In this document: piece after piece, positions 56,258 through 64,000 of the stretch
Layout of the letters: every line of letters begins with the position of its first letter
How positions within the stretch are numbered: position 1 is the first letter of the stretch
Source: Bacteroidota bacterium
GTDB lineage: Bacteria > Bacteroidota > Ignavibacteria > UBA10030
Direction: 5' to 3'
Length of the DNA: 64,000 nucleotides
NCBI GenBank assembly: GCA_041695085.1
Contig: JBGFRO010000020.1
Span: forward strand, 130,732-194,731
Made by a program: the position numbers and the translations under genes
The notes under the pieces: generated by a model
What the model saw: only the letters and a program-made list of their open reading frames with translations
Database searches by the model: none
Told to the model about the DNA's origin: nothing

Positions 56258-57583
56258 ATGGAGACTCCTATGTCTTTCATAACCTTTGAAATCGCCTTCA
56301 TAATTCTTCTGACCATATTGAACGGCATATTTGCGATGACGGAAATCGCCGTCGTCTCAGCCCGCAAGGCTCGACTCCAACAATGGGCCGAAAGCGGCAA
56401 CAAGAATGCGCGGCTTGCGCTTGAGGTTTCAAATGCGCCGGAAGAATTCTTATCAACTGTTCAGATCGGCATTACGCTGGTGGGTGTACTGGCAGGGGCG
56501 TTCGGCGGTGCAACAATCGCTCAAAACCTTGCCACGACTTTTGCAACGTATCCCATTCTTGCTCCCTATGCCGAAACGATTGCTATTGGTCTTGTGGTCA
56601 TTAGCATAACCTATTTGTCGCTCATTCTCGGCGAGCTTGTACCAAAACGCATCGCGCTGAACAATCCTGAACGCATTGCAGCGTTTATGGCAAGGCCTAT
56701 GCGTTTGCTTTCGCGGGCGACTGCCCCCGTTGTCTGGTTACTGAGCGCCTCAACCAGCACCCTTCTTTGGCTTTTCCGTTTACGACAAACTTCCGAACCC
56801 CCCATTACTGAAGAGGAGATAAAGATCCTCCTCCGACAGGGGGCTGAAGTAGGTGCGATCGAACGGGATGAGCGGGACATCATCGAACGAGTGTTTCGCC
56901 TTGGTGCACGACGGGCCAGTACTCTCATGACCCCGCGAAAAGAGCTTGTGGTTCTGTATGTCTCTGACTCCCTGGATCAGGTCCGGCAGAAGATAGTTCA
57001 GAGTGGTCACTCGGTTTTTCCACTCTGCGAACAAACACTCGATAACGTTCTCGGTGTGGTGCGCATCCAAGAGATATTTGGGCAAATTGTTGAAGGCAAA
57101 CCGATCAATCTCAAGGCCATTGTTCGCGAAGCTCTCTTTCTTCCAGAGTCGGTGCAAAGCCTGAAGCTTTTAAAAGAGTTCAAGAAAACCGGTAAGGATA
57201 TTGCACTTCTTCTGGATGAGTATGGCGGACTGCAGGGTCTCATTACGGCCACCGATATCTTGAAGGCTGTCGTCGGAGAGGTATCTTACCTTGCCCTCCC
57301 TAAGGCTGTGCGTCGGCCCGATGGATCCTGGCTCGTCGATGGGATGCTTCCCCTCGACGAGTTCAAGGAAGTACTCAAATTGAGCCAGTTGCCCGAAGAG
57401 AGTCACTCGTACGAGACTGCAGGCGGATTTGTTATGGCCCTTTTAGGTCGTATCCCGTCAGAAGGAGACTCCATTCAATGGGGTAGGTATCGGTTTGAGA
57501 TTGTTGACATGGATGGGCTTAGGGTCGATAAAATACTTGTGACCGCCTTGGCTAAAGGGGTCGATCAAAGAGGAATCCGCTGA
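56258..57583 (+). CDS. CNNM/HlyC-family (DUF21-CBS pair-CorC_HlyC) transporter-associated protein
   Basis: N-terminal DUF21 TM domain with the MTEIAVVSARKARL motif, two CBS domains and a C-terminal CorC_HlyC domain. Confidence 0.8.
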   Translation: METPMSFITFEIAFIILLTILNGIFAMTEIAVVSARKARLQQWAESGNKNARLALEVSNAPEEFLSTVQIGITLVGVLAGAFGGATIAQNLATTFATYPILAPYAETIAIGLVVISITYLSLILGELVPKRIALNNPERIAAFMARPMRLLSRATAPVVWLLSASTSTLLWLFRLRQTSEPPITEEEIKILLRQGAEVGAIERDERDIIERVFRLGARRASTLMTPRKELVVLYVSDSLDQVRQKIVQSGHSVFPLCEQTLDNVLGVVRIQEIFGQIVEGKPINLKAIVREALFLPESVQSLKLLKEFKKTGKDIALLLDEYGGLQGLITATDILKAVVGEVSYLALPKAVRRPDGSWLVDGMLPLDEFKEVLKLSQLPEESHSYETAGGFVMALLGRIPSEGDSIQWGRYRFEIVDMDGLRVDKILVTALAKGVDQRGIR

Positions 57584-57608
57584 AAGTCTAGCGCTGTTTT
57601 TTTTTCAC

Positions 57609-58337
57609 ATGAATACTTCAGGCCGTATTGTCCGTTCCTATGAGCCGACAAACAGGCAGCGACGCTTGGTAGTGTTTCTTGTACAAGTGCTCGTGCCGGT
57701 TCTGTTTGGAATTACCTGCACGCAAGTTACTGCACCCGTGACAGAGCTTCCGAAGGAACTTATGCCGCTGACCGTGGGAAACAAATGGAGGTACTTATCG
57801 GGTCTTTTCAATCCGCCCGACACAACGATATTCGAAATCACGAGGAAGATGCCGGTAACGATTGACAGTGTGACATACGATGCTTCGGCATATATCTACT
57901 ACCGACAGGGAGGAACTAAGCCGGAGTTTGAATGGCTCCACTGGAACGGTGCCGACGGCCTCTATTGGCTGGGTGGAGTTTCTGGAAGAGACTCGCTCTT
58001 CATCAAAAAACTTGGTTTCAAATATCCTGCCGAGGTTGGTGAATCATGGTTAGTTCCGATCCTCGCCTATTCTCGTTCTGATGAACGGTTTTACATACGT
58101 GATACGCTTACCTTCCACGTGATTGCCACGGATGAAGAGATTGAGACCCCCGCAGGAAAGTTCAAGTGTTATGTTTACAAGTACAGAAGAAGACCAGCCC
58201 CAGACGTTTTTGCTTACTGGAACTATCTTCTGTATTACTCACCTGGTATAGGATCGGTTGCAGAAATTATCAAGAGCGAAACTAGGGGGGATCTTAAGGA
58301 CAAGATAATTCTCTATGATTTTCAGGTCAAACCTTAA
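57609..58337 (+). CDS. hypothetical membrane-anchored protein, tandem paralog A
   Basis: 242 aa with an N-terminal signal anchor. First ~190 codons are ~98% nt-identical to paralog B; the last ~50 codons diverge. Confidence 0.6.
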   Translation: MNTSGRIVRSYEPTNRQRRLVVFLVQVLVPVLFGITCTQVTAPVTELPKELMPLTVGNKWRYLSGLFNPPDTTIFEITRKMPVTIDSVTYDASAYIYYRQGGTKPEFEWLHWNGADGLYWLGGVSGRDSLFIKKLGFKYPAEVGESWLVPILAYSRSDERFYIRDTLTFHVIATDEEIETPAGKFKCYVYKYRRRPAPDVFAYWNYLLYYSPGIGSVAEIIKSETRGDLKDKIILYDFQVKP

Positions 58338-58438
58338 CTACCTCTGAGTTTCTTCTAACTTCTGTACGAAAGTTTTTCACTGCAATTTATATGGAAGGAG
58401 GAGGAATCCGCTGAAAGTCTAGCGCTGTTTTTTTTCAC

Positions 58439-59167
58439 ATGAATACTTCAGGCCGTATTGTCCGTTCTTATGAGCCGACAAACAGGCAACGACGCTTGGT
58501 GGTGTTTCTTGTACAAGTGCTCGTGCCGGTTCTGTTTGGAATTACCTGCACGCAAGTTACTGCACCCGTGACAGAGCTTCCGAAGGAACTTATGCCGCTG
58601 ACCGTGGGAAACAAATGGAGGTACTTATCGGGTCTTTTCAATCCGCCCGACACAACGATATTCGAAATCACGAGGAAGATGCCGGTAACGATTGACAGTG
58701 TGACATACGATGCTTCGGCATATATCTACTATCGACAGGGAGGAACAAAACCCGAGTTTGAATGGCTCCACTGGAACGGTGCCGACGGCCTCTATTGGCT
58801 GGGTGGAGTTTCTGGAAGAGACTCACTCTTCATCAAAAAGCTTGGTTTCAAATATCCCGCCGAGGTTGGTGAATCATGGTTAGTTCCGATCCTCGCCTAT
58901 TCTCGTTCTGATGAGCGGTTTTACATACGTGATACGCTTACCTTCCACGTGATTGCCACGGATGAAGAGATTGAGACCCCCGCAGGAAAGTTTAAGTGCT
59001 ACGTTTACAAGTACAGCAGGAAGCCCGCGGATGATGTCTTAGAACGTTGGGATTACTATGAGTATTATTTTCCTGGTCTCGGTCCCGTCGCGTTTATTAG
59101 CAGAGGGCAATCAGACCAACGACTGATAGACAGGGCTGTATTATATGATTATCAGATGAGGAAATGA
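58439..59167 (+). CDS. hypothetical membrane-anchored protein, tandem paralog B
   Basis: See paralog A. The duplicated unit (about 831 bp) begins inside the last codons of the CNNM gene (gaggaatccgctgaaagtctagcgctg). Confidence 0.6.
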   Translation: MNTSGRIVRSYEPTNRQRRLVVFLVQVLVPVLFGITCTQVTAPVTELPKELMPLTVGNKWRYLSGLFNPPDTTIFEITRKMPVTIDSVTYDASAYIYYRQGGTKPEFEWLHWNGADGLYWLGGVSGRDSLFIKKLGFKYPAEVGESWLVPILAYSRSDERFYIRDTLTFHVIATDEEIETPAGKFKCYVYKYSRKPADDVLERWDYYEYYFPGLGPVAFISRGQSDQRLIDRAVLYDYQMRK

Positions 59168-59222
59168 TTTTTAACCGTTCGTTCTTATCTTCTTGCCACT
59201 TCTACGAAGGGAGGTTACTTTC

Positions 59223-59300
59223 ATGAAGAATTCCTGCATTCGCGTTGTGATGTTCCTTTGGTGGGCCTTCAACAGCCTCGTCTTCTCTCAAGAGAAGTGA
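59223..59300 (+). pseudogene. 25-codon remnant of a secreted-protein gene start (signal peptide only)
   Basis: RBS gaagggagg, then MKNSCIRVVMFLWWAFNSLVFSQEK, then a stop. Lies immediately before repeat copy 1. Confidence 0.35.
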
Positions 59301-59316
59301 GATCTATCTGGTTCGA

Positions 59317-59674
59317 GAGGAATCTCATTGAAGCTCTTGAAGTCAGAAAGGTTGGATCGAATCCTCAGACAATTCTTGAGCGTTTGCAAGAGTTAGAAAG
59401 AGAGAACAATGAAAATGAAGGCAAGCTGACTGTGTTGAAGGCCGAGAGAAGTGTTGATTCACGTTGCAACGAAACCTCACATTTGGTAGCAAACTTCATC
59501 CTAAACTTTGAAGAAGAGTTCGAGAGGTCGGACCCTTACCGCAAAAAAGCCCTCCTCAAGCAATGCATCTCTGACATCTTGGTCGACCGGGAGAGAAAGG
59601 TTGTCCGCTTTTCTGTCCGCAGAATCCCGGTTATGACTGCAGAGATAGAATCCCTGCTAAAAGAACATCAAAAG
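59317..59674 (+). repeat. 357-bp direct repeat copy 1 encoding a large-serine-recombinase C-terminal tail (gene fragment)
   Basis: Translation ..LERLQELERENNENEGKLTVLKAERS..FEEEFERSDPYRKKALLKQCISDILVDRERKVVRFSVRRIP.. resembles the coiled-coil/terminal region of large serine recombinases. About 98.6% identical to 63552-63908. No catalytic N-domain. Confidence 0.5.
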
Positions 59675-60075
59675 TTGGGGCAGATATTATGCCTATCTGC
59701 CACATATACGTGATGAGACGTAAAAAACGTTTGATTGTAATATTCCAACAGTGATGATATTTTCGGCACATTCACGGTCAACGTGCCATTGATATAAGCA
59801 TCTCCGGCCATCTATCTTTACCTCTCCGAATCCACTTACCGTTCACTCTGTTATCTCGTTCCTTTGTTCGAGATTTTCGAGTAACCAGCAAATGATCATT
59901 CTGGGCCCTTCCACATCATGGGTGCACAGTGCACCTGCCATTCCGGTATCCACTGTCCTATGAGGCACCGCTCTCAGTTACAATAGCGTTGGAACCGACC
60001 GCATGACTCTTTTTTTCTGTATCTTTACATTAACTCCAGAAAATTCGATTCACCCCATAAGTGGTGTTCAATCCT

Positions 60076-60645
60076 ATGGAAGCCATTATCAAATACCTCC
60101 GGGATCACAAGGGTTATGGCCGTATGAAAGACATGAAAGCGAGCGGTTTCCAAACCCGTGATATCCGAAAACTCGTTGAGGACGGCCAGCTGGTTAAGGT
60201 CAAGGCGGGACTCTACCGGCTTGCCGACATTCGCCCGGGAGAAACAACCGGACTCGTCGAGATCTGCCTCGCCATGCCCAAGGCTGTCATTTGTCTCACT
60301 TCGGCCCTGGCTTTTCACGGACTCACGACGTTTGTTCCAACGGCGATCTCTTTTGCTATTCCAGCGTCGGATAAACCGATCGATCTCTCGTATCCGCCAA
60401 GCCAGCCGTATTTCTTTTCCGAAAACCAGTACAAAGCCGGCATCGAGCATCACGAAACAAAGGAAGGACATATCCGAGTCTATGGTCCCGAGAAGACCCT
60501 CTGTGATCTCTTTCGTTTCAGGAACAAACTCGGTGAGGATATCGCTCTTGAGGGACTCAAGGAATACCTCAAACGACGCAGTCGAGACCTGAACAAACTG
60601 ATGAAGTTCGCGCAGGTGTGCCGGGTGAAAGGAACCGTCTCATAA
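60076..60645 (+). CDS. AbiEi-like antitoxin N-terminal-domain protein (orphan, no adjacent cognate toxin)
   Basis: ATG at 60076. N-terminal wHTH of AbiEi_4 type (IIKYLRDHKGYGRMKDMKASGFQTRDIRKLVEDGQLVKVKAGLYRL). Confidence 0.55.
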   Translation: MEAIIKYLRDHKGYGRMKDMKASGFQTRDIRKLVEDGQLVKVKAGLYRLADIRPGETTGLVEICLAMPKAVICLTSALAFHGLTTFVPTAISFAIPASDKPIDLSYPPSQPYFFSENQYKAGIEHHETKEGHIRVYGPEKTLCDLFRFRNKLGEDIALEGLKEYLKRRSRDLNKLMKFAQVCRVKGTVS

Positions 60646-60808
60646 TATGTAAAGGCCATCGTTGGATGAAGAAGAAACCGGTCAAATCGCCTTTAGTTTC
60701 CTATCCCCCTCCGAGTTGCATTTCATTCCAAAAAAAAGTATCTATCAGTCGCAAAAGGGGACAGAAAATGTCCACTTCTGCTACTGATAGAACCAAACAC
60801 GGACTCAT

Positions 60809-61603
60809 ATGGAACCGAAAGATTTACCCGATTTCGTCGACCACCTTCAAAGCGCGGGCAGATATTGCTTCACAAAAGAAGAAGCCAAGAGTCAGACGGG
60901 CCTGGATAACGGCGCCCTGAAAAAGGCACTGTGGAGAATGGAAGACAAGAATCGAATCAGAATGATCAAGCGCGGCTTCTACGTCATCGTACCGTTGGAA
61001 TACTTGCGCTCGGGTATCATTCCGCCAGAGTGGTTCATAGCTGACTTGATGAAGTTCATGGGCCAGCCTTACTATGTCGGGCTCCTCTCTGCAGCAGCAA
61101 TGCATGGCGCTGCACACCAGCAGCCTCAGGAGTTTCACGTTGTGGTACCAACTCCACAAAGAGATATTCGGGTTGACGGACTTCAAATAAAATTCTTCAA
61201 GAAAGCAGGGATGCGAAATTCTCCGGTCGATCAGGTGAAAACGTCGACGGGCTATATGCGCATTTCGAATCCCGCTGTCACAGCAATTGATCTTGTCGCG
61301 TACTCAGGACGTGTGGGGGGATTAGATCGAGTGTTGACGGTTCTTCAAGAGCTGAGCGAGAAGATCACACCCGATATGTTAGTTGAGGCGGCCAACAAAG
61401 AAAAGCAAATGTCGTTTGTCCAACGTTTGGGTTGGTTGTTAGAGAAAGCCGGAAAAGGAGATCTCGTCAGCAAGCTGGCGAACTGGATTTCAAAGAAGAA
61501 ACCCAGGCGAACACCACTTGACCCCGCCCTTTCAAGAAAGGGCTTTCCAAGGAACTCACGCTGGAATGTCGTTATCAACACCGAAGTGGAGGGTGAACTC
61601 TGA
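60809..61603 (+). CDS. abiEi: type IV toxin-antitoxin/abortive-infection AbiEi-family antitoxin (transcriptional regulator)
   Basis: 264 aa with N-terminal wHTH (..ALKKALWRMEDKNRIRMIKRGFYVIVP..) and a C-terminal AbiEi domain. Immediately followed by the AbiEii-type gene. Confidence 0.65.
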   Translation: MEPKDLPDFVDHLQSAGRYCFTKEEAKSQTGLDNGALKKALWRMEDKNRIRMIKRGFYVIVPLEYLRSGIIPPEWFIADLMKFMGQPYYVGLLSAAAMHGAAHQQPQEFHVVVPTPQRDIRVDGLQIKFFKKAGMRNSPVDQVKTSTGYMRISNPAVTAIDLVAYSGRVGGLDRVLTVLQELSEKITPDMLVEAANKEKQMSFVQRLGWLLEKAGKGDLVSKLANWISKKKPRRTPLDPALSRKGFPRNSRWNVVINTEVEGEL

Positions 61604-61620
61604 TCCCGCGTGCCTACATC

Positions 61621-62388
61621 GTGGAGTGGCGTTCATTCGCTCCATGGATTTCCGATGCCCAGCTCGAGCAGGATCTCATCATTTGTCGAGCGCTGATTTC
61701 TCTGTTCTCGAACAAGCTCATAGCAGAAAATCTTGCGTTCCGGGGCGGCACTGCTCTCCACAAGCTTTTCTTAAAACCGCCGTCGAGATACTCAGAGGAC
61801 ATCGATCTTGTTCAAATGAAAGCTGGTGCCATCGGTCCTATGATAGATGCGGTACGCGAGGCACTTGACACTATACTGGGTGAGCCGCGACGCCAGCGGG
61901 GAGAGGACTCGGTAACCTTGGCGTACCGAGTGGAATCGGAAATTCCGCCTGTGGTACCTTTGAAGCTCAAGGTTGAAATCAACACTCGCGAGCACTTCAG
62001 TGTGCTTGGATACAAGGAATATCCATTTTCTATCGAGTCGAGATGGTATTCCGGTGCCTGCGTGCTGAGAACTTATGGGTTGGATGAGTTGCTCGGTACG
62101 AAACTCCGCGCGTTGTATCAGCGACGGAAAGGAAGAGACCTCTTCGATCTCTGGTTAGGCTTAACTGATGGAAAAGCAAATCCTAAAAACGTCGTTCAAA
62201 TATTCCGGAAATATATGAAGGAAGAAGGCCTCAAGGTTTCCCAAAGAGAATATCGTGACAACCTTGCAAAGAAGATGAAAACAAAAGCGTTCTTAGCCGA
62301 TACGGACAATCTCTTGAGACCGGGCATCGAGTACGATCCCCATAAGGCCTATCAATTTGTTGACCAGAATGTTCTTGGACTGCTTTAA
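61621..62388 (+). CDS. abiEii: AbiEii/AbiGii-family nucleotidyltransferase toxin (DUF1814)
   Basis: GTG start. FRGGTALHKLF..SEDIDL nucleotidyltransferase motif is typical of AbiEii. Confidence 0.7.
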   Translation: MEWRSFAPWISDAQLEQDLIICRALISLFSNKLIAENLAFRGGTALHKLFLKPPSRYSEDIDLVQMKAGAIGPMIDAVREALDTILGEPRRQRGEDSVTLAYRVESEIPPVVPLKLKVEINTREHFSVLGYKEYPFSIESRWYSGACVLRTYGLDELLGTKLRALYQRRKGRDLFDLWLGLTDGKANPKNVVQIFRKYMKEEGLKVSQREYRDNLAKKMKTKAFLADTDNLLRPGIEYDPHKAYQFVDQNVLGLL

Positions 62389-62390
62389 GG

Positions 62391-62858
62391 TTGATTGTAG
62401 AAATACGAAAAATCCACCTTCAGATTGCCCTTATTATCGTTTTCTTCCTCGGCTTCGCGAGGATTGGTAATGCCCAACAAGCATCCCCCTGGGACGTCTA
62501 CTTCTCTCCCCGGGGCGGAGCCACGTTTGCAATCCGGCCAGCACACGACAACGCAAAATCATCCGTCCTTGTCCAGGCCTATTCCTTCACCTCGGCACCC
62601 ATCGCCGAGGCTTTGGTCAACGCATATAGGCGGGGTGTCAAAGTCCAAGTGCTGCTGGATAAAAGCCAGCGGACAGGGAAATACTCCTCCTCCGACTTTC
62701 TGGTCAACGCCGGCATCTCAGTCAAAATCGATGCTGCACACGCCATTGCTCACAACAAGGTGATGATCATTGATAAGGAAACGGCGAGAGAATCAATTCC
62801 ACTTCTCCCCGCCGCACCAACTCCATCACTTGATCAGCCGATCCACCGGGAACAATGA
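62391..62858 (+). CDS. secreted phospholipase-D-like (Nuc-type) nuclease domain protein, possibly C-terminally truncated
   Basis: Signal peptide, then a PLD HxK motif (AHNKVMIID). The sequence after the motif does not continue like canonical Nuc (expected GSxNFT..). Confidence 0.5.
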   Translation: MIVEIRKIHLQIALIIVFFLGFARIGNAQQASPWDVYFSPRGGATFAIRPAHDNAKSSVLVQAYSFTSAPIAEALVNAYRRGVKVQVLLDKSQRTGKYSSSDFLVNAGISVKIDAAHAIAHNKVMIIDKETARESIPLLPAAPTPSLDQPIHREQ

Positions 62859-62939
62859 AAGACGAGATGATGACATTGGTATCGAGCGTGATTCGCATTC
62901 ACTTTGCACCGTTACAAAGTTCGCTGATTCAAACGGGGA

Positions 62940-63176
62940 CTATTTGCGGACTTCATCCACAAGACGCTCGATCTTGTCTTCCGTCTCCACCTTCAGCGCA
63001 GCAGCACGCTCCCGCACGGCACGTCGAAATCCCTTGTCGCTTTGGAGGTCCAAATACAGCCGAAGCGCGTCACGCACCACCTCGCTTTTTGTTCGGTGCT
63101 CCTTCTTTGCCATTTTCTCGGCTTCACGCAAAAGACGCGGCGGAATTGAAACCGTTACAACCTTACTTTGTCTCAT
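62940..63176 (-). CDS. ribbon-helix-helix (CopG/ParD-like) DNA-binding protein
   Basis: Start at MRQSKVVTVSIPPRLLREAEKMAKKEH.. (ATG 63176; the longer ORF runs to 63230). Classic RHH beta-strand plus two helices. Confidence 0.7.
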   Translation of the reverse strand: MRQSKVVTVSIPPRLLREAEKMAKKEHRTKSEVVRDALRLYLDLQSDKGFRRAVRERAAALKVETEDKIERLVDEVRK

Positions 63177-63193
63177 AGCTCTAAATTCCCTAT

Positions 63194-63210
63194 GTATTAC
63201 ACTGTAATAC
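63194..63210. promoter_or_regulatory. 17-bp perfect palindrome GTATTACA C TGTAATAC, candidate RHH operator in divergent promoter region
   Basis: Located 18 nt upstream of the RHH start and 42 nt upstream of the ATPase ATG. Confidence 0.5.
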
Positions 63211-63251
63211 AAATATAGTATTCGACACAACGATTGTCAAACATACCGACA

Positions 63252-63566
63252 ATGGATGCAGACTTAAGAAATGACACAACGTTTTTCGGCAGAACAGACG
63301 AGCTTTACCAACTGGTCAAGAACCTCCAGCGAGGAAGGCACACCCTTGTTCTCGGTCCCAAAGGCATCGGCAAAAGCAGACTGATGATGGAAGCAAAGGC
63401 AATCCTTGAAGGCAGGACAAAACGCATAGAATTCTCGGCCAATGTCATCGCACAACTGACCAGTCAACTTGGTGTTCGCATTCGTCCCGATCAATATAAA
63501 ATGCTCTACGTGGAGCATTCCGCGCCATTAAGTGATTGCCTCAATGAAGCGGAGGAATCTCATTGA
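63252..63566 (+). pseudogene. P-loop ATPase N-terminal fragment truncated by repeat copy 2
   Basis: Walker A GPKGIGKS. The ORF runs 14 nt into the 357-bp repeat and stops (about 105 codons). Confidence 0.45.
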
Positions 63567-63908
63567 AGCTCTTGAAGTCAGAAAGGTTGGATCGAATCCT
63601 CAGACAATTCTTGAGCGTTTGGAAGAGTTAGAAAGAGAGAACAATGAAAATGAAGGCAAGCTGACTGTGTTGAAGGACGAGAGAAGTGTTGATTCACGTT
63701 GCAACGAAACCTCACATTTGGTAGCAAACTTCATCCTAAACTTTGAAGAAGAGTTCGAGAGGTCGGACCCTCACCGCAAAAAAGCCCTCCTCAAGCAATG
63801 CATCTCTGACATCTTGGTCGACCGGGAGAGAAAAGTTGTCCGCTTTTCTGTCCGCAGAATCCCGGTTATGACTGCAGAGATAGAGTCCCTGCTAAAAGAA
63901 CATCAAAA
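63552..63908 (+). repeat. 357-bp direct repeat copy 2 (serine-recombinase C-terminal fragment), continuing to the window end
   Basis: See copy 1. Past the repeat the ORF continues ..KEHQKNKAVTEVMTAVSSGG.. to the window edge. Confidence 0.5.
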
Positions 63909-64000
63909 AAATAAGGCAGTCACAGAGGTTATGACTGCCGTTAGTAGCGGGGGCACACCCTTTACTCCAGACACAACCCCTTTTTATCGGATCTTTGAAA

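What the first reader, a model, noticed from the sequence alone, without database searches (positions are those of the whole stretch)
59223..63999. Defense islet bracketed by 357-bp direct repeats that encode only a serine-recombinase C-terminal tail
Two 98.6%-identical repeats (59317-59674, 63552-63908) each translate to the terminal coiled-coil/tail of a large serine recombinase but lack any catalytic domain. Copy 1 follows a 25-codon signal-peptide stub, and copy 2 truncates a P-loop ATPase gene. Between them lie an orphan AbiEi-like gene, a complete AbiEi/AbiEii abortive-infection pair, a secreted PLD/Nuc-like nuclease gene and a divergent RHH repressor with its operator. The segment is lower in GC. 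The architecture suggests a cargo cassette mobilised or captured by recombination between recombinase-gene 3' ends (a cassette-shuffling site), or the scar of two nested integrative elements. The PLD nuclease + RHH + truncated ATPase combination may be remnants of an uncharacterised defense system.
Basis: partly seen in the sequence, partly recalled or inferred. Interest (0 to 1): 0.7.

Follow-up and report, generated by a model that had tools for sequence, protein, structure and literature searches.

The report
Duplicated integrase-gene scraps beside tRNA-Met
Two near-identical 357-bp repeats are dead tail-end fragments of a serine-integrase gene, lying in a patchwork of decayed mobile elements that piled up next to a tRNA-Met gene in an Ignavibacterium-like bacterium; they are real, but an ordinary by-product of repeated integration and deletion, not a new cassette-shuffling device.

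Summary
The repeat is real: 59317-59673 and 63552-63908, 357 bp, 5 mismatches, sharp edges. Each copy was assembled independently with its own flanks in other samples. It encodes residues ~446/448-566 of a ~581-aa large serine recombinase (LSR). That is the end of helix 1, the tip and helix 2 of the coiled coil, plus a small C-terminal module; no catalytic domain exists anywhere in 74 kb. Intact relatives (L013, L014, L039) end 20-42 nt inside a convergent tRNA-Met gene, and in L013 and L039 follow an AAA_16 ATPase. Copy 2 is therefore an in-place remnant. A deletion of roughly 2.3-2.6 kb fused ATPase codon ~105 to LSR codon ~446. To its right lie the tRNA terminator hairpin and a 12-nt tRNA 3'-end fragment. 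The intact tRNA-Met lies 4.6 kb beyond the window, past a later integrase-less insertion. The segment between the copies is a patchwork, not a cassette: an orphan AbiEi, an intact AbiEi/AbiEii pair, a 3'-truncated PLD, an RHH gene with a 43-codon PIN stub, and the ATPase stub. The closest known parallels are tRNA/tmRNA islands built by accretion and decay. Still unexplained: the two truncation points lie only 2 codons apart.

The parts
59223..59300 (+). 25-codon hydrophobic stub ORF (MKNSCIRVVMFLWWAFNSLVFSQEK*) forming the unrelated left flank of copy 1
   Evidence: Translation. No similarity to recombinase, to the ATPase or to any fetched locus. 'Signal peptide' is inferred from the hydrophobic stretch only and was not tested.
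59317..59673 (+). Repeat copy 1: remnant of a large-serine-recombinase gene (about residues 448-566 of the 581-aa L013 protein) with no native flanks
   Evidence: coordinates, 5 mismatches. (tblastn aligns L013 residues 448-564 to 59315-59665). (phrog_95 integrase, E=1.9e-5). (independent contig L007).
59258..59713 (+). Open reading frame containing copy 1 (P0002, 150/151 aa); its first ~19 and last ~13 codons come from unrelated flanking DNA
60061..60645 (+). Orphan AbiEi-type gene (no cognate AbiEii next to it)
   Evidence: PADLOC AbiEi E=8e-61 over the full profile. Pfam AbiEi_4 is weak.
60809..61603 (+). AbiEi antitoxin/regulator of an intact AbiE pair
   Evidence: Pfam AbiEi_1 E=1e-36. 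PADLOC AbiEi E=1.7e-92.
61621..62388 (+). AbiEii nucleotidyltransferase toxin of the intact AbiE pair
   Evidence: Pfam AbiEii E=1.5e-35. PADLOC AbiEii E=4e-104.
62391..62858 (+). PLD/Nuc-like gene, 3'-truncated; true homology ends at ~62774 just after the H-x-K motif and the rest of the ORF is out-of-context sequence
   Evidence: Pfam PLDc_2 covers only profile positions 6-93 of 132. The 76% nt match to the L020 gene stops at 62774. The L020 ORF continues past that point with ...IIDGGIVITGSFNFTKAAEERNAENLL....
62767..62898 (-). 43-codon stub of a PIN-domain toxin gene, cut at the same junction as the PLD gene
   Evidence: Pfam PIN_3 positions 1-40 of 115, E=1.3e-4, below the gathering score because it is so short. 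ORF listed.
62940..63230 (-). RHH (CopG-type) antitoxin gene, upstream partner of the PIN stub
   Evidence: Pfam RHH_1 E=3.5e-8. Promoter-like site 63240-63212 on the minus strand, 11 of 12 matches (a consensus match only).
63234..63566 (+). First ~105 codons of the AAA_16 ATPase that precedes the integrase in intact elements; the frame then runs into recombinase-derived DNA and stops
   Evidence: Pfam AAA_16/nSTAND1, weak. 69% identity to residues 1-106 of the 339-aa L039 ATPase. Alignment to the L013 upstream ORF ends at ...DCLNE, window 63548.
63544..63548 (.). Deletion junction ATPase'|'recombinase; the overlapping ATGAA/TGAA could come from either parent (microhomology)
   Evidence: ATPase homology ends at 63548 and recombinase homology starts at 63544..
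63552..63908 (+). Repeat copy 2: in-place remnant of the recombinase gene; recombinase homology extends 8 nt further left and ~46 nt further right than the repeat
   Evidence: L013 residues 446-579 align to 63544-63954; independent contigs L002, L003.
63544..64000 (+). Open reading frame containing copy 2 (P0001, 156 aa; ATG at the deletion junction; ends 14 nt past the window)
63905..63939 (-). Orphaned intrinsic terminator of the tRNA-Met gene (10-bp stem GGCAGTCATA/TGTGACTGCC followed by TTATTTTTTT), embedded in the last codons of the recombinase gene
   Evidence: Terminator scan. Fold z=-3.1. Equivalent hairpins directly abut the tRNA in L004, L013 and L014, whereas the empty site L017 has a different terminator.
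63944..63955 (+). 12-nt fragment of the tRNA-Met 3' end (GTAGCGGGGGCA): direct repeat of the 3' end of the intact tRNA-Met 4.57 kb further on (outside the window)
   Evidence: (only occurrence in the window). The intact tRNA-Met is at L001 14980-15053.

Best explanation
The two 357-bp repeats are non-functional 3'-terminal remnants of a large-serine-recombinase (integrase) gene. The gene belongs to a clade whose members lie at the very end of their element, converge on a tRNA-Met gene, and stop 20-42 nt inside it. The last 5 kb of the window is the inner part of a composite island of at least 9 kb. That island grew by repeated integration at one tRNA-Met gene of an Ignavibacterium-like genome and then decayed by deletion.

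Shown: copy 2 is in its native place. To its right are the element-borne tRNA terminator hairpin and a 12-nt tRNA 3'-end fragment. To its left are the first ~105 codons of the AAA_16 ATPase that precedes the integrase in intact elements. One internal deletion of roughly 2.3-2.6 kb therefore removed the rest of the ATPase gene, a small ORF, and the catalytic, recombinase and zinc-ribbon domains.

Shown: a 4.57-kb integrase-less segment (a second AbiEi/AbiEii pair plus a PrimPol-helicase gene) lies between that tRNA fragment and the intact tRNA-Met and is flanked by the 12-nt direct repeat. This is the signature of a later integration at the tRNA that pushed the older remnant inwards.

Inferred: copy 1 is a clean secondary copy of the same already-truncated remnant. 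It is 1.4% diverged, has unrelated DNA on both sides and has no tRNA fragment. It was probably made by a non-site-specific event such as local duplication, template switching or ectopic recombination. Descent from a sister element is the main alternative.

The DNA between the copies is a patchwork: an orphan AbiEi, one intact AbiEi/AbiEii pair, a truncated PLD nuclease gene, a broken RHH-PIN pair and the ATPase stub. No recombinase is left, so nothing here can catalyse site-specific movement. The repeats can act only as passive homology for RecA-dependent loss or re-gain of the 4.2-kb segment.
For: Repeat and its independence from assembly. Recombinase identity: phrog_95 'integrase' matches P0003, P0001 and P0002 at profile positions ~419-569 of 651 (E=5e-12, 3e-7, 2e-5). 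Exhaustive phmmer gives 163 hits, and the 581-600-aa hits align over their last ~180 residues. Those proteins carry Resolvase + Recombinase + Zn_ribbon_recom. tblastn maps the copies to residues 446-579 and 448-564 of the L013 protein and finds no other piece in 74 kb. Annotated phage large serine recombinases match at 21-27% identity. The AF2 model of the longest fragment (pLDDT 88.6) shows a helical hairpin plus a small terminal module. tRNA linkage: full-length genes overlap tRNA-Met(-) in L013, L014 and L039. The L004 remnant runs into a partial tRNA-Met. A terminator hairpin inside the coding sequence abuts the tRNA in all recombinase loci but not in the empty site. In-place deletion at copy 2. 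Later insertion with a 12-nt direct repeat. Hotspot nature of this tRNA: conserved tRNA-Met/helicase synteny, with host-type genes (a histidine kinase; a Ser/Thr kinase) next to the tRNA in L017 and L018, and a tyrosine-integrase island with a 15-nt direct repeat in L020. Patchwork interior. Lower GC. Precedent: tandem accretion at ssrA by CcrB-type serine recombinase islands, with integrase-less members (PMC3146451); successive integrations, fragmented integrases and partial tRNAs in tRNA-linked islands (10.1101/2020.12.28.424599).
Against: The two truncation points are only 2 codons (6-8 nt) apart, at residue 446 versus 448. Under any neutral model this is roughly a 1% coincidence (my estimate), and the explanation does not account for it. 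The origin of copy 1 is not resolved. It has no tRNA fragment or native flank, and the hairpin after it is weak (z=-2.2) and not significantly similar to copy 2's. Both remnants are still open reading frames. Copy 2 versus the 80%-identical L004 remnant gives dN/dS 0.21. That fits past selection on intact genes but does not exclude present function. The outer (left) border of the island was not found: there is no further tRNA fragment, and no relative with the upstream genes was available. The recombinase's crossover point is inferred from comparison only.
Confidence: 0.75

Rival explanations
1. Origin-of-copy-1 variant: the two copies are the scars of two closely related recombinase elements that integrated one after the other at tRNA-Met (tandem accretion). 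Each left its integrase tail behind, and copy 1 belongs to the older element pushed inwards.
For: Accretion with inward displacement is the documented behaviour at such sites and demonstrably happened here once (12-nt direct repeat). In intact elements the integrase tail is the tRNA-proximal end. Copy 1 is followed by a hairpin at the same offset as copy 2's.
Against: There is no tRNA 3'-end fragment after copy 1. Flank similarity, including the hairpin, is not above chance. It needs independent truncations within 2 codons of each other plus a second deletion at the right edge. Serine integrases are not expected to use a hybrid att site for a second integration (established knowledge, not tested here).
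Confidence: 0.25
2. One reading: the 357-bp blocks are homology handles. A circular DNA carrying one block plus cargo (AbiE, PLD, RHH, ATPase stub) recombined with a resident block (Campbell-type insertion), so integrase 3' ends serve as a recurrent cassette-capture site.
For: The topology fits exactly. Copy 1 has a resident left flank and a 'cargo' right flank. Copy 2 has a cargo left flank and a native right flank. The longest perfect blocks of 94, 70 and 61 nt are, from general knowledge of RecA, ample for homologous recombination. Module similarities in the family are discordant: the ATPase is 69% identical to L039's, while that element's recombinase matches the tail fragment at only 29%. 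That suggests exchange within the integration module.
Against: No second locus with the same blocks and other cargo, and no deleted or circular recombinant, is on record among ~15 billion proteins or in the collections scanned. It still needs two independently truncated tails cut 2 codons apart. The cargo is itself a set of broken genes, and part of it (ATPase stub plus copy 2) is the native integration module, so it does not look like an incoming cassette.
Confidence: 0.12
3. The tail-only ORFs (P0001, P0002) are functional small proteins. For example, they could be coiled-coil decoys that interfere with incoming recombinases of the same clade or stabilise the island, which would explain why both truncations stop at almost the same codon.
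For: Both ORFs are intact, and P0001 has an ATG exactly at the deletion junction. The truncation points are 2 codons apart. Many database relatives are 100-200-aa tail-only proteins, and 84 of 104 start with M. dN/dS against L004 is 0.21.
Against: The fragments keep only ~10 residues of coiled-coil helix 1. The five differences between the copies are 3 non-synonymous to 2 synonymous, so there is no sign of constraint. At least one short database hit (P0005) is just a mis-started fragment at a contig edge, so the excess of short hits is unreliable. The L004 remnant is cut elsewhere, at residue 376. No expression data are available.
Confidence: 0.06
4. PLD nuclease + RHH + truncated ATPase are remnants of one uncharacterised defence system.
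For: The genes are adjacent. There are weak PADLOC hits of the PLD fragment to DrmC (E=5e-7) and of the ATPase stub to mad8 (E=1.5e-4).
Against: Each part has a different, better partner. The ATPase is the integrase's upstream neighbour in L013 and L039. The RHH gene is followed by a PIN stub. The PLD homologue sits in L020 beside a two-gene pair that resembles HigB/HigA by sequence pattern (not run through a family search) and a tyrosine integrase. PLD and RHH-PIN are separated by a deletion junction.
Confidence: 0.03
5. The repeat is a segmental assembly artefact or a chimera of strains.
For: The source is a metagenome contig. Short-read graphs do break at the repeat.
Against: Independent assemblies from other samples span each whole copy with both of its unique flanks at 100% identity, each with its own five variants.
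Confidence: 0.01

Closest known systems
Dehalococcoides ssrA-specific genomic islands (DsiB, a CcrB-family large serine recombinase; PMC3146451)
   Same: The serine-recombinase integrase gene is the element gene nearest the att site at the 3' end of a tRNA-like gene. A short direct repeat of that 3' end marks island borders. Islands accumulate in tandem, some lack an integration module, and GC is low (here).
   Different: The target here is tRNA-Met, not tmRNA. The phylum is different (Ignavibacteriota-like). The integration module is an AAA_16 ATPase + small ORF + recombinase, not DsiB/DsiA/RecF/ParB. The recombinase here is reduced to two tail fragments. Homology to DsiB itself was not tested.
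tRNA-linked islands built by successive integrations, e.g. tycheposon-bearing islands of Prochlorococcus (10.1101/2020.12.28.424599)
   Same: New elements integrate at the tRNA and push older ones inwards. Fragmented integrases and partial tRNAs are scattered in the island. A minority of elements use large serine recombinases. Primase/helicase replication genes and defence or adaptive cargo are present (here).
   Different: No membership in that element family is claimed or tested. Two near-identical 357-bp integrase fragments as direct repeats are not a described hallmark.
Accretion and cis-mobilizable elements (CIMEs) of the ICESt1/ICESt3 type (Pavlovic et al. 2004, cited through; reviews listed but not read)
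   Same: An att-flanked, integrase-less segment lies next to other element remnants at one integration site. Here that is the 4.57-kb segment flanked by the 12-nt repeat.
   Different: Those elements use tyrosine integrases at a protein-gene 3' end. Mobilisation in cis was not tested here and no helper integrase is present.
AbiE (AbiEi/AbiEii) type IV toxin-antitoxin / abortive-infection system
   Same: An adjacent AbiEi (264 aa) and AbiEii (255 aa) have full-length, very strong profile matches. A second pair lies just beyond the window.
   Different: An extra orphan AbiEi gene precedes the pair. Function was not tested.
Phage large serine integrases (e.g. the Faecalibacterium phage FP_Epona integrase; TP901-1 and TnpX catalytic domains in the PDB)
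   Same: The intact relatives of the fragment share the Resolvase-Recombinase-zinc ribbon-coiled coil architecture. In L014 the gene sits beside a phage terminase large subunit.
   Different: Identity is only 21-27%. The well-known serine integrases I recall (phiC31, Bxb1, A118) target protein-coding genes, not tRNA genes (recalled, not tested). The window itself has only the tail.

Membership tests
Large serine recombinase (functional integrase) | N-terminal catalytic Resolvase domain with the active-site serine | tested here: not met
   No Pfam hit in either ORF. tblastn with two full-length relatives finds nothing upstream of residue 446 in 74 kb.
Large serine recombinase (functional integrase) | Recombinase domain and zinc beta-ribbon DNA-binding domains | tested here: not met
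   Absent from the window. Present in intact relatives at residues ~204-324 and ~344-402.
Large serine recombinase (functional integrase) | Coiled-coil motif and C-terminal tail homologous to family members | tested here: met
   phrog_95 and phmmer alignments to the last ~135-180 residues of 581-600-aa recombinases. The AF2 helical hairpin shows that only ~10 residues of helix 1 remain in the window copies. Foldseek gave no specific structural match.
tRNA-linked genomic island formed by site-specific integration | An intact tRNA gene at one border | tested here: met
   tRNA-Met(-) lies 4.6 kb beyond the window (L001 14980-15053). The same tRNA/helicase synteny is seen in relatives.
tRNA-linked genomic island formed by site-specific integration | Direct repeat of the tRNA 3' end at an inner or outer border | tested here: met
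   The 12-nt GTAGCGGGGGCA at 63944-63955 repeats the tRNA 3' end. This is met for the tRNA-proximal segment only. No repeat was found at the outer border or next to copy 1.
tRNA-linked genomic island formed by site-specific integration | Site empty or differently occupied in relatives | tested here: met
   L017 and L018 have host-type genes (a histidine kinase; a Ser/Thr kinase) next to the tRNA, though L018 also carries a 106-nt remnant flanked by an 11-nt repeat. L020 has a tyrosine-integrase island. L013, L014 and L039 have intact serine-recombinase elements.
tRNA-linked genomic island formed by site-specific integration | A functional integrase gene in the island | tested here: not met
   Only two tail fragments are present. 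No tyrosine integrase is listed among the called genes between the upstream host genes and the tRNA.
AbiE toxin-antitoxin / abortive infection | Adjacent AbiEi (wHTH + C-terminal domain) and AbiEii (nucleotidyltransferase) genes | tested here: met
   60809-61603 and 61621-62388. Pfam E=1e-36 and 1.5e-35; PADLOC E=1.7e-92 and 4e-104.
RHH-PIN (VapBC-like) toxin-antitoxin | Full-length PIN toxin downstream of the RHH antitoxin | tested here: not met
   Only 43 codons remain, matching PIN_3 positions 1-40 of 115 and scoring below Pfam's threshold.
PLD/Nuc HKD endonuclease | Complete PLD-like domain | tested here: not met
   The profile is covered only over positions 6-93 of 132. Homology to the full-length L020 gene ends at 62774.
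Site-specific cassette-shuffling system (integron-like or shufflon-like) | A resident recombinase plus its recombination sites at the cassette borders | tested here: not met
   There is no recombinase catalytic domain in 74 kb. The borders are 357-bp homologous blocks, not short sites. No inverted repeats of 30 nt or more are present.

The most novel reading that the evidence does not exclude
The near-coincident truncation (residues 446 and 448) is not chance. On this reading, catalytically dead integrase tails (coiled-coil tip, helix 2 and the C-terminal module) are retained as small proteins that bind incoming recombinases of the same tRNA-Met-targeting clade. They would block further integration or excision at the hotspot, as an integrase-derived 'immunity' analogous to N-terminally truncated transposase inhibitors.
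Probability: 0.06. Interest if true: 0.65.

Novelty: new member of a known kind. Interest (0 to 1): 0.25.

Why it matters
As it stands the result is mainly a clarification. An apparent 'cassette bracketed by recombinase tails' resolves into the ordinary accretion and decay of mobile elements at a tRNA hotspot. Its only intact functional content is AbiE-type toxin-antitoxin modules. Two by-products may be useful. First, it documents a clade of large serine integrases, in phage and island contexts of Ignavibacteriota/Bacteroidota-like genomes, whose genes end inside a tRNA-Met gene and carry that tRNA's replacement terminator in their last codons. tRNA targeting is uncommon for serine integrases, and it predicts their attB. 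Second, it gives a worked example of how comparison with intact relatives can assign each broken gene in a defence islet to its original module. That guards against inventing 'new systems' from neighbouring fragments.

Tried and rejected
- Pfam and PADLOC on the repeat-encoded peptides gave no hit.
- The word-index protein search with the tail and with P0003 found only four short relatives and no full-length recombinase. The exhaustive HMMER search was needed.
- A genome-contig scan with the tail alignment found no relative. The metagenome scan gave one locus, L013.
- Rfam over the whole window gave no match, so there is no evidence for an RNA element in the repeat.
- Foldseek of the AF2 model against the PDB returned only generic coiled coils, none significant. 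A sequence search of the PDB hit only catalytic domains.
- BLAST of copy 1's stub and spacer, and of other islet junction pieces, against all fetched loci gave nothing for copy 1's flanks.
- I tested whether the flanks of the two copies are diverged homologues, i.e. old paralogues homogenised by gene conversion. My by-eye match of the two hairpins did not survive a shuffle test, so I rejected that idea.
- I looked for deletion or circular recombinants between the copies among cluster members. P0154 is only P0002 with M for its GTG start.
- A search for further tRNA-fragment repeats that would mark the outer island border found none near the islet.
- The excess of short M-initiated 'tail-only' database proteins is not usable as evidence for a stand-alone family, because P0005 proved to be a contig-edge fragment with an internal start.
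- L003 carries the copy-1 allele at one diagnostic site of copy 2. That could be ancestral polymorphism or a short conversion patch, and it is not decisive.

Full report
OBSERVATION. The repeat exists as described. At a fixed offset of 4,235 nt, window 59317-59673 equals 63552-63908. That is 357 nt with five mismatches (59387, 59442, 59537, 59599, 59650), i.e. 98.6% identity, and identity drops to background immediately outside both edges. A self-comparison of 57-69 kb finds only this pair and an unrelated tandem pair upstream. The DNA just outside the block is not more alike between the copies than shuffled sequence. The repeat is not an assembly artefact. L007, assembled from a different sample, equals window 58963-63289 at 100%, so it spans the upstream gene, all of copy 1 with its five private variants, and the islet. 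L002 equals 63420-67031 of the source contig at 100%, spanning the ATPase stub, copy 2 and the DNA beyond. Several shorter contigs begin exactly at 59620, 30 nt before the last distinguishing SNP, which is where a k=31 graph should break at a genuine repeat (the k value is my inference). The islet's GC is 0.484, against 0.538 +/- 0.016 (minimum 0.497) for same-sized windows upstream.

WHAT THE REPEAT ENCODES. Pfam and PADLOC do not recognise the peptide, and a word-index search of 5.8 billion clusters found only four short relatives. More sensitive methods settle the question. The PHROG family phrog_95 ('integrase', 651 positions) matches the longest relative, P0003, and both window ORFs at profile positions ~419-569 (E = 5e-12, 3e-7, 2e-5). 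An exhaustive phmmer search gave 163 hits, among them proteins of 581-600 aa that align over their last ~180 residues. Those proteins have the Resolvase, Recombinase and Zn_ribbon_recom domains. A 581-aa example on metagenome contig L013 is 62% identical to P0003 in the tail. tblastn maps copy 2 to its residues 446-579 and copy 1 to residues 448-564, and finds no other piece of such a gene in the 74 kb available. Deposited phage genomes hold only distant relatives (21-27% identity), annotated as large serine recombinase or integrase. An AlphaFold model of P0003 (pLDDT 88.6) shows a long antiparallel helical hairpin (helices 23-71 and 79-132, tip 72-78) followed by a helix, a beta-hairpin and a helix. 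The window copies start at about residue 60-62 of that fragment. They therefore retain only the last ~10 residues of helix 1, the tip, helix 2 and the terminal module. Foldseek found nothing specific.

THE MISSING CONTEXT: A tRNA-Met HOTSPOT. The source contig (JGI 3300045452, 559 kb) continues beyond the window. In the 80%-identical relative L004, the tail ORF runs through an A-run and a hairpin straight into the reverse complement of a tRNA-Met 3' half. The full-length genes in L013, L014 and L039 all stop 20-42 nt inside a convergent tRNA-Met gene. On the tRNA strand, the hairpin plus U-run is an intrinsic terminator. It lies inside the recombinase's last codons in every recombinase-bearing locus, whereas the unoccupied site in L017 has a different terminator. 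So the element reaches the tRNA and supplies that tRNA's terminator. In the window, copy 2 is followed by the same hairpin (63915-63939, with the T-run at 63905-63914 on the minus strand) and then by GTAGCGGGGGCA (63944-63955), the last 12 nt of the tRNA, after which similarity ends. The intact tRNA-Met lies 4.57 kb further on (L001 14980-15053) and begins with the same 12 nt. Between them are an AbiEi (DUF6577)/AbiEii pair and a PrimPol-SF2 helicase gene, and no integrase. This is the usual signature of a later integration at the tRNA that displaced the older element inwards. The host is an Ignavibacterium relative. The tRNA-Met/helicase synteny is conserved. L017 and L018 have host-type genes next to the tRNA, with a 106-nt remnant in L018. 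L020 has a tyrosine-integrase island flanked by a 15-nt repeat of the tRNA end.

COPY 2 IS AN IN-PLACE DELETION REMNANT. In L013 the ORF upstream of the recombinase reads ...NVITQLKGHLGIRLRSDQYKVIWIDRASPLGDCLNE|LCYKLH..., and the window's ATPase stub reads ...NVIAQLTSQLGVRIRPDQYKMLYVEHSAPLSDCLNE|AEESH*. ATPase homology ends at 63548 and recombinase homology begins at 63544, and the overlapping ATGAA is compatible with either parent. In L039 the same module is complete: an AAA_16 ATPase of 339 aa, a 63-aa ORF, then the recombinase overlapping tRNA-Met. The window stub is 69% identical to ATPase residues 1-106. One deletion of roughly 2.3-2.6 kb therefore removed the ATPase 3' part, the small ORF and recombinase codons 1-445 (size estimated from the L013 and L039 gene lengths). 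The ATPase stub is thus part of the integration module and not a defence-gene remnant.

THE INTERIOR IS A PATCHWORK. Three genes are intact: an orphan AbiEi (60061-60645), and AbiEi (60809-61603) with AbiEii (61621-62388). The rest is broken. The PLD/Nuc-like gene matches only profile positions 6-93 of 132, and its 76% nucleotide match to the full-length L020 gene stops at 62774. From the other side, a 43-codon PIN stub (62898-62767, minus strand) follows the RHH antitoxin gene (63230-62940) and ends at the same point. So the islet contains at least two more deletion junctions and parts of at least two or three former elements.

COPY 1. Copy 1 has no native flank. To its left is an unrelated 25-codon hydrophobic stub ORF. 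To its right is a spacer with no match to anything fetched. It has no tRNA fragment, and its downstream hairpin is weak (z = -2.2) and not significantly similar to copy 2's. The copies differ at 3 non-synonymous and 2 synonymous sites. No full-length parent exists in the databases above ~62% identity. I therefore regard copy 1 as a clean secondary copy of the already-truncated remnant, made by a non-site-specific event. The main alternatives are descent from a sister element (accretion) or Campbell-type insertion of a circle by homologous recombination. No recombinant (deleted or circular) form is on record. One sample carries the copy-1 allele at a single diagnostic site of copy 2, which is either ancestral polymorphism or a short conversion patch.

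WHAT REMAINS UNEXPLAINED. The two remnants begin 2 codons apart (residues 446 and 448). Every neutral scenario I could construct needs this as a coincidence of about 1% (my estimate). Possible causes are a breakpoint hotspot or selection for an ORF starting there. For the hotspot, both junctions lie just 5' of a TTGAAG-CTC-TTGAAG direct repeat (read directly from the sequence). For selection, both copies are open reading frames, and P0001 has an ATG exactly at the junction. Several observations argue against selection. The fragments lack most of coiled-coil helix 1. The copies show no constraint relative to each other. The L004 remnant is cut at residue 376 instead. The many short database relatives are unreliable, since at least one is a contig-edge fragment. 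The dN/dS of 0.21 between copy 2 and L004 is what descent from once-functional genes would give.

COMPARISON WITH KNOWN SYSTEMS. The closest documented parallels are the Dehalococcoides ssrA islands and the tRNA-linked islands described with tycheposons. In the ssrA islands, a CcrB-type large serine recombinase gene lies next to the att site, 20-bp repeats of the ssrA 3' end mark the borders, the islands form tandem arrays, and integrase-less members are attributed to accretion (PMC3146451). [quoted passage not shown] The window shares the logic of both. It is not shown to belong to either family, and it fails the test for a functional recombinase and for any site-specific shuffling system.

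VERDICT. The structure is an ordinary product of accretion and decay at a tRNA hotspot, not a new mobilisation mechanism. Interest is low to moderate. The tRNA-Met-targeting serine-integrase clade and the coincident truncation points are the only points that might repay follow-up.

Noticed in passing
L013 1331-3130; L014 1641-3452; L039 879-3923; L004 9968-10634: A clade of ~580-600-aa large serine recombinases whose genes end 20-42 nt inside a convergent tRNA-Met gene and contain that tRNA's terminator hairpin in their last codons. In L013 and L039 the gene follows an AAA_16 ATPase, with a ~63-aa ORF in between in L039 (L038 has a similar 64-aa ORF). In L014 it sits beside a phage terminase large subunit. 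By eye, most of the 10 full-length HMMER hits end in peptides that look like translated reverse-complement tRNA (…SGGRT, …GLEPAAFGL, …GIRTHDL), which suggests a broader tRNA-targeting serine-integrase clade.
   Followed up: partly
window 57570-58189 and 58401-59019 (genes 57609-58337 and 58439-59167): A tandem repeat of 620 nt at 97.4% identity. It comprises two paralogous 242-aa genes (weak DUF3108-like match) that are near-identical over the first ~190 residues, with divergent C-termini, just upstream of copy 1. It is a second recent duplication or conversion in the same low-GC stretch, so the island may begin here.
   Followed up: partly
beyond the window: L001 10414-14979 (= 63956-68522 on the source contig), tRNA-Met at L001 14980-15053: A 4.57-kb integrase-less segment flanked by the 12-nt repeat GTAGCGGGGGCA. 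It carries a second AbiE pair (DUF6577-type AbiEi, 269 aa; AbiEii, 349 aa) and a 730-aa PrimPol (AEP-TOTE)-SF2 helicase. It looks like a CIME-like or satellite-like element that has lost its integrase or never had one.
   Followed up: partly
L020 475-3962: A tyrosine-integrase island at the same tRNA-Met in another Ignavibacteriales MAG. It is flanked by a 15-nt repeat of the tRNA 3' end and carries a full-length PLD/Nuc gene (76% nt identity to the window's truncated one) and a two-gene pair that resembles HigB/HigA by sequence pattern (not run through a family search). L018 has an 11-nt repeat enclosing only 106 nt, a minimal scar.
   Followed up: partly
window 63212-63240 (minus strand): An 11-of-12 sigma-70-like promoter match (TTGACA-17-TATATT) in front of the RHH gene, in the short divergent interval shared with the ATPase stub. 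This is only a consensus match, and Ignavibacteria may use other promoter motifs.
   Followed up: no
L003 (sample SRR35803271), position equivalent to window 63834: Copy 2 in this sample carries the copy-1 allele at one of the five diagnostic sites, with copy-2 alleles on both sides. This is either population polymorphism or a short gene-conversion patch between the repeats.
   Followed up: partly
window 59668-59811 (minus strand): A 47-codon ORF fragment (…GDAYINGTLTVNVPK…) in the spacer right of copy 1. It looks like a piece of a larger gene, and nothing in the fetched loci matches it.
   Followed up: no
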